From positions 1 to 44,077 of the IMG/VR virus record IMGVR_UViG_2537561936_000014: 44,077 bases of DNA; one strand, 5' to 3'. Position 1 is the first letter of the stretch; every line of letters begins with the position of its first letter. Made by a program: the position numbers. The DNA comes from a virus. Taxonomy: Duplodnaviria; Heunggongvirae; Uroviricota; Caudoviricetes. This document shows, piece by piece, positions 6,001 to 9,000 of the stretch.

Positions 6001-9000
6001 GGCAATGCTTAATGCCGCTGCTTTTTCCAGATTGGTGATATCCCGCTCCAGAGCGGACAGATTTTCAGCCTGCTTAGCCCTGGCTTCATTGGCCCATTTC
6101 AGGTCCTGCACTGCCTTAATTTTCTGGCGCATCCACTCATAAAGTTCATCATCGGTATAGTCTGGCGCGATGATGACGGGTTCTCGTTTCTGCATACTGA
6201 TTCCTCTCAGTGCTGTTTCCCCTTAACGCCGGGGTAGCGGAACAAAAACCTGCTGCATAGTTAAAGTTGAACCCTGCCGTCATGTTCTTACGCCTCGGGC
6301 TGGCTACTTACCCCCTGACCACTGCCTGGTAACTCGAAGTATTGCCCTGCGTTCTGTGGGACGGGGTGGGTTGGTATTTTTAGTTTAATAAACATTAAAC
6401 TTAAGTCAAGTGAAAACTAAATCGTGGGACGTAACAAACACAACGCTTTTGATAAAGTCGTTGCGGTTGTTATGTTTCTATTGGTAGTGAAAGTTAGGGA
6501 AACTGGCGTCTTGCGTGGATCACGTTTACTACTTCAACGCTTGATGTTGTTACGCGGTATAGAATTATATAGTTAGGGTGGGCTACAATCTCACGCAAGC
6601 CTGGTACTCTGTCGCTTGGTGGGTATAAATACGGATGTTCGGATAACGGCAGCACACAACCCCTTAATCGCTGCCATAAGCGTTCAGCCGCATCTATGTC
6701 GAAACGAGCAATATAACTAGTTATATCATCTAGGTCGGTATCTGCGCTTTCAAGCCATAACACGGGTAACATTTTACTGCTTGCTCCGTTCCTTGCGCAT
6801 TTTAGCAAAGCGTTCTGCCATTCTGCGCTCAACTTCGTCATGGGGAATTGCTGGGCGCGGATCTGCAAGGCTCGTTGCTACTTTCGCACGCAGCCATTCG
6901 TTGTAACTGTTTTCTTGTTCAATGGTTTCAAATTCAGAAACCATTGGTGAAAGGGCTCTATTCATGTTTCCTCCGGTTTTATAACTCAGGCGCGGCGGCA
7001 TTTTTGCGCCGCAATCCATCTCGCTATGAGATCTTCCATTGATTCTTTTTTCTGCTTTAGCTCGCTGATTATCTGGCGTTGCTCATCCTCAGGGAAGGCT
7101 GAAAAAATCTGCAATAATTCCAGTTGATTAGACGTTAACCCTGCATGTGGTGGAGAAACCTCCGGTTGTTCTGCGTATTCCGCATCCAGATACCCTTCCG
7201 GCATCCCGTATGTTTGCTCTATTCTTCTGGCAGCCTTTTCTCCAAACGAGGCTCTCCCACTCATTAGTTGAGATAGGTAGCTCTTCTCTTTGGGTGGCAG
7301 AGTTTTATCTTTAAACCACTCCTTGAGACGTAAACGGCGAATTTCTTTTTTTTGCATGTGGTAATTATCTTTAGTAATCACTAAACAAGCAAATACTTGA
7401 CTTAATGGTTTATTAAACACTAAACTCGAAAAAAACACTAAACCGAGGAAGGTATGACATTAAAAGAGTTTATTAAATCATTGAGGGTTGGTGATGCTAA
7501 GAAATTCGCGGCCAGACTTGGTGTATCGCCATCTTACTTATCGCAAATGGCGTCTGGACGAGCAGCTATATCTCCAACCCGCGCCCTCATGATCGAATCT
7601 GCGACGGAAGGCCAAGTAAGTAGGGCGGAGCTACGACCCCATGATTGGGAGCTTATTTGGCCTGAGTATGCGAGCGGCATTCGTTTGGGGCAAACACATG
7701 TAGTTCATGCTGAAGGTGATTGTAGTGCATGCTTATCTGATGGAGTTGATTCATGAAAATCAAGCATGAACACATCCGCATGGCGATGAATGCCTGGGCG
7801 CATCCGGACGGCGAGAAAGTACCGGCTGCAGAGATTACCAAAGCGTATTTCGAGCTGGGAATGACGTTCCCGGAACTGTATGACGACAGCCATCCGGAAG
7901 CCCTGGCTCGCAATACCCAGAAAATTTTCCGCTGGGTAGAGAAAGACACCCCTGATGCAGTTGAAAAAATTCAGGCGTTGTTACCAGCGATCGAAAAGGC
8001 AATGCCACCTTTGCTGGTGGCCAGAATGCGCAGCCACAGTTCTGCTTATTTTCGGGAGCTGGTGGAGACGCGGGAGCGACTGGTGAGAGACGCTGATGAT
8101 TTTGTCGCAGTGGCAATCGCCGGTTTCAATCAGATGAACCGCGGTGGCCCGGCGGGAAATGCCTTGGTGATGCACTAAAAGCACGGTGTTCGGAGTTTTT
8201 TATGAGCAGCAAGCTTCATGGTCTTGTCTGGGAAGGGTGTGCCTTCACCGGCATGATCTTATCCAGGGTGGCAGTTATGGCTCGCCTTGCAGATTACAGC
8301 AATGACGAAGGTGTGTCATGGCCTGCAGTGGAGACCATTCGTCGTCAGATTGGGGCAAAGAGTGAATCAACGGTTAAAGCTGCGATAGCAGAACTGGAAA
8401 AGAACGGCTGGCTGACGAAGGAGGAACGTAAGGTCGGTGGGCGTAATGAAAGCAATATCTACCGTCTTAATGTGGAAAAACTCGAAGCAGCAGCAGCGGC
8501 GGCGCGTGAGGCATATAAACCGAAAAGAAAAATTAGCCAGGCAAAAAATGACCCGTCAAATATTGCCCCCTCAACGGTTAACCCATCAAATTTTGATGGA
8601 TCAACCGTTGATAAAAAACAGTCGGATAGGGGGGCGATGGTTGGCCCCGATCCGTCAGTATTAAAACCTGATCCGTCAGATAAAAGATCTTTTCGTCCGG
8701 AAGCTTCGCAACCGGACATGCAGACGGCTGAACAGGATTTTTTAACCCGACACCCTGACGCGGTTGTGTTCAGTGCGAAAAAACGCCAGTGGGGTAGCCA
8801 GGAAGATTTAGCGTGTGCGCAGTGGATCTGGGGGCGAATCGTGAGTCTTTACGAGCAGGCCGCCAGCGATGATGGCGAGATTTCGCGACCGAAAGAACCC
8901 AACTGGACCGCATGGGCCAACGACGTGCGCACAATGCGGATGCTGGATGGCAGAACTCACAGACAAATTTGTGAAATGTTTGGTCGGGTGCAGCGGGATC

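What the first reader, a model, noticed from the sequence alone, without database searches (positions are those of the whole stretch)
6494..7357. Three-gene regulator / antitoxin / ParE-toxin operon that may double as prophage immunity
A ParE-family toxin and a 63-aa antitoxin abut with a 1-nt gap, and the HTH regulator immediately upstream is the gene divergent from the ydaS-like gene. That matches the three-component paaR-paaA-parE organisation I recall from E. coli O157 prophages. The TA regulator and the prophage repressor may be the same protein.
Basis: partly seen in the sequence, partly recalled or inferred. Interest (0 to 1): 0.55.

Follow-up and report, generated by a model that had tools for sequence, protein, structure and literature searches.

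The report
Known paaR2-paaA2-parE2 prophage immunity operon

Summary
On the minus strand lie parE2 (6494-6772, 92 aa), paaA2 (6774-6965, 63 aa; 1-nt gap) and paaR2 (6986-7357, 123 aa), divergent from ydaS (7454-7756) and ydaT (7753-8178).

ParE2 and PaaA2 are 100% identical to the crystallised E. coli O157:H7 proteins (PDB 5CW7/5CZE/5CZF, 3ZBE). The PaaR2 DNA-binding domain is identical to PDB 7NKV/8C3K/8C3L, deposited as 'Phage repressor protein CI'.

That paper assigns PaaR2 = CI analogue, YdaS = Cro analogue and YdaT = CII analogue. It also reports a leaderless paaR2, PRM/PR/PL/PRE promoters, shared operators, bistability and addiction.

All of these elements are present in the window. The only change in the regulatory spacer is one missing base (96 vs 97 bp).

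My additions are small. The cassette is complete in 590 of 5,426 complete E. coli genomes and in the isolated coliphage Evi. PaaR relatives in 27 other species pair with ydaS, often with ydaT, but never with paaA/parE. The longer relatives carry a Peptidase_S24 domain.

Here the module sits in a prophage with an apparently full gene set. Verdict: real, ordinary, already known.

The parts
6494..6772 (-). parE2: ParE-family toxin, 92 aa
   Evidence: 100% identical over 92 aa to PDB 5cw7_B/5cze/5czf 'Plasmid stabilization protein ParE'. Pfam PF05016 ParE_toxin, 60.9 bits. Identical to the O157:H7 PV15-279 protein.
6774..6965 (-). paaA2: antitoxin, 63 aa, no DNA-binding domain
   Evidence: Residues 2-63 are identical to PDB 3zbe_A PaaA2. 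Pfam PF21217 PaaA2, 70.7 bits. 1-nt gap to parE2.
6986..7357 (-). paaR2: HTH regulator and CI-analogue prophage repressor, 123 aa, translated from a leaderless mRNA
   Evidence: Residues 1-65 are identical to PDB 7nkv/8c3k/8c3l 'Phage repressor protein CI'. 121/123 identical to O157:H7 PaaR2; the differences are E66G and V67G in the interdomain linker. PHROG 5736 transcriptional regulator. The N-terminus MQKKE and a +1 at the ATG are published (PMC8630535).
7358..7453 (.). Divergent OR-like control region, 96 bp. PRM (minus strand): -35 TTGCTT 7392-7387, -10 GATAAT 7369-7364, +1 = A of the paaR2 ATG at 7357. PR (plus strand): TTGACT 7397-7402, 18-nt spacer, TAAACT 7421-7426. Palindromic operators IR1 7369-7386 and IR3 7408-7425. 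The half-site CACTAAAC occurs three times (7379, 7418, 7436).
   Evidence: PR was found by the promoter scan. The PRM hexamers are read directly from the sequence and fit the published leaderless start. IR1 and IR3 are two of the three best matches in the whole 44-kb window to the published half-site GTTTAGTAA made palindromic. CACTAAAC has 3 copies here and 4 in the window, against 0.9 expected. The region is identical to the 97-bp O157:H7 region except for one missing C at about 7428-7429, between IR3 and the IR4 half-site.
6382..6422 (-). PL-like promoter and OL-like operators, downstream of parE2 and facing left
   Evidence: TTGACT-16-TAAACT on the minus strand at 6409-6382 uses the same hexamers as PR. 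The operator-like palindrome GTTTAATAAACATTAAAC lies at 6383-6400. A 24-nt inverted copy of the PR region places arms at 6383-6406 and 7395-7418, 988 nt apart. PL933P with OL1-3 is described in PMC8630535.
6429..6475 (-). Stable RNA hairpin just after the parE2 stop codon; inferred 3' end or stabiliser of the operon transcript
   Evidence: Minimum free energy -18.3 kcal/mol against -9.65 +/- 2.46 for shuffles, z = -3.5. There is no clear U-tract, so a terminator role is only inferred.
7454..7756 (+). ydaS: Cro analogue, HTH_XRE, 100 aa
   Evidence: Pfam YdaS_toxin PF15943 at 46.2 bits, HTH_3, and a weak P22_Cro match. PHROG 35 transcriptional repressor. 99/100 identical to O157:H7. Function shown in PMC8630535.
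7753..8178 (+). ydaT: CII analogue, 141 aa
   Evidence: Pfam PF06254. PHROG 163 'CII-like transcriptional activator', E=1e-45. 19 differences from O157:H7 YdaT, mostly in residues 98-138.
7746..7763 (+). YdaT operator OM, TTGATTCATGAAAATCAA, at the ydaS/ydaT junction in the PRE region
   Evidence: It is the only match in the window to the published YdaT site TTGATT-N6-AATCAA, with 0 mismatches. The site and its position at the end of ydaS are described in PMC9986795.

Best explanation
The locus is the paaR2-paaA2-parE2 ('RAE2') operon, embedded as the leftward arm of the immunity switch of a lambdoid prophage.

The switch. PaaR2 is an HTH repressor that occupies the position of lambda cI and is translated from a leaderless PRM transcript. 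It binds repeated operators in the 96-bp paaR2/ydaS spacer and a second operator set at PL, about 1 kb away on the far side of the operon. This shuts off rightward transcription of ydaS-ydaT from PR and leftward early transcription from PL, and it modulates its own promoter. YdaS (Cro analogue) competes for the same operators, which gives a bistable switch. YdaT (CII analogue) binds TTGATT-N6-AATCAA at the ydaS/ydaT junction and activates a leftward PRE-like promoter that also reads into the operon.

The toxin-antitoxin pair. paaA2-parE2 occupies the slot that rexA-rexB occupies in lambda and is co-transcribed with the repressor. PaaA2 has no DNA-binding domain. It neutralises ParE2 by wrapping around it, and it is protease-labile (ClpAP/ClpXP). 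Loss of the module therefore frees ParE2, which associates with the nucleoid and induces the SOS response. Through this addiction the module stabilises the immunity region or prophage.

Basis. Shown here: the identity of all proteins and regulatory sequences. Taken from published experiments on identical or near-identical sequences: DNA binding, repression, leaderless translation, bistability and post-segregational killing. Inferred only: that the module behaves the same in this particular prophage.
For: Protein identity to the characterised O157:H7 proteins. Pfam and PHROG assignments. PR and PL were found with identical hexamers TTGACT/TAAACT. The three best operator matches in the window lie exactly at OR and OL, and the CACTAAAC half-site is enriched in the spacer. 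The OL and OR regions are inverted copies of each other. The exact YdaT operator is present. The spacer is identical to O157:H7 apart from a 1-nt deletion. Published experiments: PMC8630535 and PMC9986795. Position: the module lies between exo/dicB/DicF on the left and O-like and DnaC-like replication genes on the right. Independent comparative support: PaaR relatives in 27 other species are paired with divergent ydaS (22/27) and ydaT (14/27). None has paaA or parE within 2.5 kb downstream. The 210-221-aa relatives that share the N-terminal domain (57-80% identity) carry Peptidase_S24 like classical CI repressors. PaaR2 is therefore a phage repressor first, and the TA pair is an add-on.
Against: Nothing in the sequence contradicts this reading. 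Four caveats apply. (1) PaaR2 lacks the S24 autocleavage domain, so it is not a homologue of full-length lambda CI, and its induction route is unknown. (2) The molecular target of ParE2 has not been identified. (3) The published single-cell work detected no ParE2 activity in either switch state, so the biological role beyond addiction is unproven. (4) This window differs from CP-933P by one base in the operator spacer, by two linker residues in PaaR2 and by 19 residues in YdaT, and these differences have not been tested functionally.
Confidence: 0.95

Rival explanations
1. A self-contained three-component TA system in which PaaR2 is merely a 'split-off' DNA-binding half of the antitoxin. On this view it serves only TA autoregulation, has no role in phage immunity, and its adjacency to ydaS is incidental.
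For: PaaA2 lacks a DNA-binding domain, so some other protein must regulate the operon. In E. coli, paaR2 almost never occurs without the TA pair: 590 complete modules against 593 paaR2 copies. The original 2010 description treated it as a three-component TA (cited).
Against: PaaR relatives in 27 other species occur with ydaS/ydaT and without any paaA/parE. The same N-terminal domain is fused to Peptidase_S24 in bona fide CI-type repressors. Operator copies sit on PR and on a distant PL that drive non-TA genes. The published data show that PaaR2 primarily represses ydaS-ydaT and PL.
Confidence: 0.03
2. The paaA2-parE2 pair acts mainly as a lysogen-expressed anti-phage cassette (abortive infection or superinfection exclusion), functionally replacing rexA-rexB, rather than as an addiction module.
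For: It sits in the rexAB slot and is co-transcribed with the repressor in the lysogenic state. The antitoxin is protease-labile, which is typical of TA systems triggered by phage infection. The published work leaves the role open.
Against: There is no match to any PADLOC defence model. No phage-defence phenotype is reported in the papers I read. Addiction and plasmid stabilisation, by contrast, were demonstrated. This rival concerns only the biological role and is compatible with the mechanism in the best explanation.
Confidence: 0.1
3. A decayed, non-functional remnant in a cryptic prophage: ORFs present but inactive.
For: CP-933P, where the module was first studied, is a cryptic prophage.
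Against: All five ORFs are intact. ParE2 and PaaA2 are identical to proteins shown to be active. The cassette is at least 99% conserved in most of the roughly 590 E. coli genomes that carry it. It is also present in an isolated coliphage. The prophage in this window retains an intact integrase, exonuclease, replication, lysis and structural gene set.
Confidence: 0.02

Closest known systems
paaR2-paaA2-parE2 (RAE2) of cryptic prophage CP-933P / Sp12, E. coli O157:H7 (Hallez et al. 2010; Jurenas et al. 2021, PMC8630535)
   Same: Same genes in the same order with the same spacing. ParE2 and PaaA2 are 100% identical, PaaR2 is 121/123 identical and YdaS is 99/100 identical. The PR, PRM and PL hexamers, the operators and the YdaT site are the same.
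   Different: The spacer is 96 bp rather than 97 bp, with one C missing between IR3 and the IR4 half-site. The PaaR2 linker reads EV instead of GG at residues 66-67. The YdaT C-terminal part differs at 19 residues. The surrounding prophage is a different mosaic with an apparently full gene set; in O157:H7 PV15-279 the integrase and exonuclease are pseudogenes interrupted by IS elements.
Lambda immunity region: cI-rexA-rexB with OR/OL, cro and cII
   Same: The architecture is the same. A leftward leaderless repressor gene is followed by two accessory genes. A divergent cro-like gene is controlled by shared operators. A second operator and promoter set lies on the far side. A CII-like activator acts at the cro/cII junction.
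   Different: There is no detectable sequence similarity to CI, Cro or CII. PaaR2 has no S24 autocleavage domain. The published description gives four inverted repeats plus direct repeats instead of three palindromic operators. OL and OR are about 1 kb apart. A toxin-antitoxin pair replaces rexAB.
RacR-YdaS-YdaT of the E. coli K-12 Rac prophage
   Same: A divergent repressor / ydaS-ydaT arrangement in a lambdoid prophage immunity region, with YdaS and YdaT of the same Pfam families.
   Different: According to the paper, the CP-933P YdaS and YdaT are only 26% and 31% identical to the Rac proteins. Rac has no TA pair behind the repressor.
Classical two-gene parDE (plasmid RK2; Vibrio cholerae parDE2)
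   Same: A ParE-fold toxin (weak but significant matches to ParE structures 3kxe, 6x0a and 5ceg) neutralised by a small labile antitoxin, with an addiction phenotype.
   Different: ParD antitoxins carry their own DNA-binding domain and autoregulate the operon. PaaA2 has none, and regulation is delegated to the phage repressor. The ParE2 target has not been identified.
paaR1-paaA1-parE1 of CP-933M
   Same: A paralogous three-component system in another O157:H7 prophage.
   Different: A different, diverged copy. The window's proteins are identical to the '2' system, not the '1' system. I did not compare it directly.

Membership tests
PaaR-PaaA-ParE three-component type II toxin-antitoxin system | Toxin of the ParE family (RelE/ParE fold) | tested here: met
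   PF05016 at 60.9 bits against a cut-off of 23. 92/92 identity to the crystallised ParE2, 5cw7/5cze/5czf.
PaaR-PaaA-ParE three-component type II toxin-antitoxin system | PaaA-family antitoxin without a DNA-binding domain, encoded immediately upstream of the toxin | tested here: met
   PF21217 PaaA2 at 70.7 bits. Identical to 3zbe. 1-nt gap to parE2. No HTH, RHH or AbrB family hit.
PaaR-PaaA-ParE three-component type II toxin-antitoxin system | Third gene (paaR) encoding a transcriptional regulator, first in the same operon | tested here: met
   paaR2 lies 20 nt upstream of paaA2 on the same strand. Residues 1-65 are identical to the PaaR2 DNA-binding domain structures. Co-transcription is taken from the literature and was not measured here.
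PaaR-PaaA-ParE three-component type II toxin-antitoxin system | Toxicity of ParE2, specific neutralisation by PaaA2, and Clp-dependent post-segregational killing | not testable with these tools
   Published for proteins of identical sequence (PMC8630535 citing Hallez 2010).
Lambdoid prophage immunity switch (CI/Cro/CII-type) | Repressor and cro-like genes transcribed divergently from overlapping promoters that share repeated operators | tested here: met
   PR found by scan, and PRM read from the sequence. Operator palindromes and CACTAAAC repeats are concentrated in 7358-7453. Footprints are published.
Lambdoid prophage immunity switch (CI/Cro/CII-type) | Second operator and promoter set (OL/PL) on the other side of the repressor operon | tested here: met
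   PL at 6409-6382 has the same hexamers as PR. An operator match lies at 6383-6400. A 24-nt inverted copy of the PR region is present.
Lambdoid prophage immunity switch (CI/Cro/CII-type) | Map position between recombination/kil genes and replication genes of a prophage | tested here: met
   int, xis, exo, DicF and ydfC lie to the left; the O-like HTH_36 protein and the IstB/DnaC-like ATPase lie to the right.
Lambdoid prophage immunity switch (CI/Cro/CII-type) | Repressor confers immunity to superinfection and maintains lysogeny | not testable with these tools
   For CP-933P (a cryptic prophage) only reporter repression and bistability were shown. No immunity test on a viable phage was found in the papers I read.
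LexA/CI (Peptidase_S24) autocleavable repressors | C-terminal S24 Ser-Lys peptidase domain that mediates RecA-stimulated self-cleavage | tested here: not met
   The 123-aa PaaR2 has no Pfam hit. Relatives of 210-221 aa that share its N-terminal domain do carry PF00717. The paper states that PaaR2 lacks the motif and does not respond to mitomycin C. PaaR2 is therefore a functional analogue of CI, not a member of this family.
ParE gyrase poisons | Inhibition or poisoning of DNA gyrase | not testable with these tools
   The literature says the precise ParE2 target remains to be uncovered. It reports nucleoid co-localisation and SOS induction.

The most novel reading that the evidence does not exclude
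In this window the RAE2 immunity region sits in a prophage with an apparently complete gene set, unlike the IS-disrupted relative in O157:H7 PV15-279 (and the cryptic CP-933P described in the literature), and the same region occurs in the isolated coliphage Evi. PaaR2 may therefore be the working immunity repressor of viable temperate phages. Because it cannot self-cleave, induction might run through the AntA/AntB-type antirepressor encoded at 34539-35102. The co-transcribed PaaA2-ParE2 might then act as a lock that kills lysogens whose immunity region is replaced by recombination, or as a RexAB-like exclusion device. None of this was tested here, and most of it is already raised as a hypothesis in the 2021 paper.
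Probability: 0.2. Interest if true: 0.4.

Novelty: already known. Interest (0 to 1): 0.1.

Why it matters
It matters little as a discovery. The system, its structures, its promoters and operators, and the dual role of PaaR2 as TA regulator and CI-like repressor are all published. The value here is correct annotation. RefSeq pipelines label PaaR2 'hypothetical protein', PaaA2 'RelB family antitoxin' and YdaT 'toxin YdaT family protein', and all three labels are misleading. Two modest new points follow from my work. The cassette is a highly conserved unit present in about 11% of complete E. coli genomes. Outside E. coli the PaaR/YdaS/YdaT switch exists without the TA pair, which supports the published idea that paaA2-parE2 was inserted into a pre-existing immunity region.

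Tried and rejected
1. Longer alternative ORFs from the mechanical ORF list were rejected: a 124-aa TTG start for the toxin, an 81-aa ATG start for the antitoxin and a 150-aa GTG start for the regulator. The PDB sequences and the published N-terminal sequencing (MQKKE) fix the shorter starts.

2. I looked for LexA boxes that might link the switch or the antirepressor to the SOS response. There is no CTGT-N8-ACAG site in the window and no match to the 20-mer consensus within 3 mismatches. The looser CTG-N10-CAG hits are scattered in coding regions and none lies near the immunity or ant regions.

3. The PADLOC defence-system models gave no hit for any of the three proteins.

4. I tried to identify the source genome. 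No complete E. coli genome matches the 1.5-kb module at more than 99.1%, and none covers 80% or more of the first 22 kb of the window. The structural half is 94-95% identical to prophages of E. coli 52F4 and W. The window is therefore a distinct mosaic and its exact origin remains unidentified.

5. A literature search for the origin of phage Evi showed only that it was isolated from infant faecal samples.

6. I did not use the large protein-database searches or structure prediction. Identical solved structures exist, so they would add nothing.
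Full report

Yes, and the coordinates are exact. Three ORFs lie on the minus strand:
- parE2, 6494-6772, 92 aa.
- paaA2, 6774-6965, 63 aa.
- paaR2, 6986-7357, 123 aa.

One base (6773) separates the paaA2 stop from the parE2 start. A 20-nt spacer containing GGAGGA separates paaR2 from paaA2. On the plus strand ydaS starts at 7454, and ydaT (7753-8178) overlaps its end. The paaR2/ydaS spacer is 96 bp (7358-7453).

**2. What is it?**

The three proteins are the experimentally characterised PaaR2, PaaA2 and ParE2 of E. coli O157:H7.
- ParE2 is 92/92 identical to PDB 5cw7_B/5cze/5czf, E=7e-60.
- PaaA2 residues 2-63 are identical to PDB 3zbe_A, E=5.5e-37.
- PaaR2 residues 1-65 are identical to PDB 7nkv/8c3k/8c3l, deposited as 'Phage repressor protein CI', E=1.3e-39.

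Pfam gives ParE_toxin (60.9 bits), PaaA2 (70.7 bits), YdaS_toxin/HTH_3 and YdaT_toxin. It gives nothing for PaaR2. PHROGs calls PaaR2 a transcriptional regulator, YdaS a transcriptional repressor and YdaT a 'CII-like transcriptional activator'.

Compared with O157:H7 strain PV15-279:
- ParE2 and PaaA2 are identical.
- PaaR2 differs at two linker residues (E66G, V67G).
- YdaS differs at one residue.
- YdaT differs at 19 residues, mostly in residues 98-138. This suggests a recombination boundary inside ydaT.

**3. How does it work?**

The mechanism was worked out by Jurenas et al. (mBio 2021, PMC8630535) and Prolic-Kalinsek et al. (Acta Cryst D 2023, PMC9986795). Their findings are:
- PaaR2 is a functional analogue of lambda CI, YdaS of Cro and YdaT of CII.
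- paaR2 is transcribed from PRM933P, with the transcription start at the A of its ATG, so the mRNA is leaderless.
- PaaR2 and YdaS footprint overlapping stretches of the spacer, which holds four 18-bp inverted repeats (half-site consensus GTTTAGTAA) plus direct repeats.
- Both proteins repress PR933P, PRM933P and a distal PL933P. Low PaaR2 levels activate PRM.
- YdaT activates PRE933P at the ydaS/ydaT junction, binding TTGATT-N6-AATCAA.
- The locus is bistable and heritable.
- The TA pair stabilises an unstable mini-F plasmid (addiction). PaaA2 is degraded by ClpAP and ClpXP.
- No ParE2 activity was seen in either switch state.

I mapped each of these elements onto the window.
- **PR:** TTGACT(7397-7402)-18-TAAACT(7421-7426) on the + strand.
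- **PL:** TTGACT-16-TAAACT at 6409-6382 on the minus strand. The hexamers are the same as in PR, as the paper describes.
- **PRM:** read from the sequence as TTGCTT (7392-7387), a 17-nt spacer, then GATAAT (7369-7364). The paaR2 ATG begins 7 nt downstream at 7357 and no Shine-Dalgarno sequence is present.
- **Operators:** I scanned the whole 44-kb window with the published half-site made palindromic. The three best hits are IR1 (7369-7386, 2 mismatches), IR3 (7408-7425, 3 mismatches) and an OL palindrome (6383-6400, 4 mismatches).
- **Half-sites:** CACTAAAC occurs three times in the spacer. The window has four copies in total against 0.9 expected.
- **OL/OR symmetry:** the PL and PR regions are 24-nt inverted copies of each other, 988 nt apart, flanking the operon.
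- **YdaT site:** the only match in the window is exact, TTGATTCATGAAAATCAA at 7746-7763.
- **3' end:** a stable hairpin follows the parE2 stop at 6429-6475, z = -3.5. Its role as a terminator or stabiliser is only inferred.

The spacer is identical to that of O157:H7 except for one missing C (CGCAAAAAAA becomes CGAAAAAAA). The missing base lies in the poorly conserved left half of IR4. A bovine E. coli strain also has a 96-bp spacer.

**4. Comparative checks that add a little**

*Distribution in E. coli.* The full 1.5-kb module covers at least 80% of the query in 590 of 5,426 complete E. coli genomes. paaR2 alone is in 593 genomes, 568 of them at 99% identity or more. The TA pair is in 633 genomes. 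In E. coli the three genes therefore travel as one highly conserved cassette.

*Presence in a phage.* The region is also present at 98.3% identity in Escherichia phage Evi (LR597642.1). Evi is a coliphage isolated from infant faeces. Its ParE2 is intact and 100% identical but unannotated.

*Other species.* Among one-genome-per-species representatives, 27 other species carry PaaR relatives at 44-80% identity. They include Xenorhabdus, Photorhabdus, Arsenophonus, Morganella, Yersinia, Erwinia, Raoultella, Enterobacter, Mycoavidus and a Neisseriaceae genome. A divergent ydaS homologue is present in 22 of the 27 and ydaT in 14. None has a paaA or parE homologue within 2.5 kb downstream.

*Domain architecture.* The 210-221-aa relatives share the PaaR2 N-terminal domain and carry a C-terminal Peptidase_S24 domain, as classical CI/LexA-type repressors do.

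These results independently support two points. PaaR2 belongs to a phage-repressor lineage, and the TA pair was added to a pre-existing PaaR/YdaS/YdaT switch. The 2021 paper proposes the same idea.

**5. Context**

The window is a mosaic lambdoid prophage. In order it carries:
- integrase, excisionase and an intact 823-aa exonuclease;
- DicF sRNA and ydfC, then the immunity region;
- O-like and DnaC/IstB-like replication genes;
- hok/sok, two tRNAs, lysis genes and terminase;
- a head and baseplate-tail module that is 94-95% identical to prophages of E. coli 52F4 and W.

No complete E. coli genome contains this exact mosaic. In O157:H7 PV15-279 the related prophage has pseudogenised integrase and exonuclease genes interrupted by IS elements; the gene set here looks complete. 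Viability was not tested.

**6. Comparison with known systems, and verdict**

The locus meets every testable defining feature of the PaaR-PaaA-ParE three-component TA family and of a lambdoid immunity switch. It fails the S24 autocleavage test, so PaaR2 is a CI analogue and not a LexA-like CI. This too is already stated in the literature.

Novelty: already known. Interest: low.

The only open questions are inherited from the literature:
- the molecular target of ParE2;
- the biological role of the TA pair (addiction against exclusion);
- the induction route of a repressor that cannot self-cleave.

On the last point, the antirepressor gene at 34539-35102 is a lead that I noted but did not test.

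Noticed in passing
window 34539-35219 (-), with neighbours 35382-35855 (-) and 35865-36413 (-): A leftward insert sits inside the rightward baseplate/tail module. It contains an AntA/AntB-type antirepressor (PHROG 14211, E=1.5e-76). Immediately upstream is an Rfam sRNA-Xcc1 match (35136-35219, 78 bits against a gathering score of 53). Two ORFs with signal-peptide-like N-termini follow. This may be an immI-like second control region, and it is a candidate induction route for PaaR2, which lacks an autocleavage domain. No LexA box was found nearby.
   Followed up: partly
window 7428-7429: The paaR2/ydaS spacer is 96 bp here and in a bovine E. coli strain, but 97 bp in O157:H7 and phage Evi. A single C is missing between IR3 and the IR4 half-site, which changes the operator spacing by one base. 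Its effect on the bistable switch is unknown.
   Followed up: partly
window 7753-8178: YdaT differs from the O157:H7 protein at 19 of 141 residues, clustered in residues 98-138. The four genes to its left differ at 0-2 residues each. This looks like a recombination breakpoint inside ydaT, at the right edge of the conserved immunity cassette.
   Followed up: partly
window 11374-11548 (+): An Rfam sok antitoxin RNA match (117.7 bits) indicates a hok/sok type I toxin-antitoxin locus. It corresponds to the hokD annotation in related prophages. It is a second, unrelated TA system in the same prophage.
   Followed up: no
window 4986-5036 (-): A DicF antisense sRNA (Rfam, 69.6 bits) lies downstream of PL in the leftward early region. 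Related prophages annotate dicB and ydfC in the corresponding stretch.
   Followed up: no
window 14011-14164 (+): Two phage-borne tRNA genes, tRNA-Thr(TGT) and tRNA-Gly(TCC), lie upstream of the lysis genes. The related E24377A prophage has Ile, Thr and Gly tRNAs at the corresponding place.
   Followed up: no
L001, L002, L004 (RefSeq annotation of the same module); L003 14828-15103: Public annotation of this well-characterised module is poor. PaaR2 is labelled 'hypothetical protein', PaaA2 'RelB family antitoxin' and YdaT 'toxin YdaT family protein'. In phage Evi the intact parE2 gene is not annotated at all.
   Followed up: yes
L021, L022, L024, L030 (Yersinia aleksiciae, Erwinia sp., Mycoavidus, Neisseriaceae), 2465-3148: Repressors of 210-221 aa share the PaaR2 N-terminal DNA-binding domain (about 57-80% identity) but carry a C-terminal Peptidase_S24 domain. 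The 118-126-aa forms in Xenorhabdus, Photorhabdus, Arsenophonus and Raoultella have a PaaR2-like helical C-terminus instead. The repressor family has therefore swapped its C-terminal domain.
   Followed up: partly
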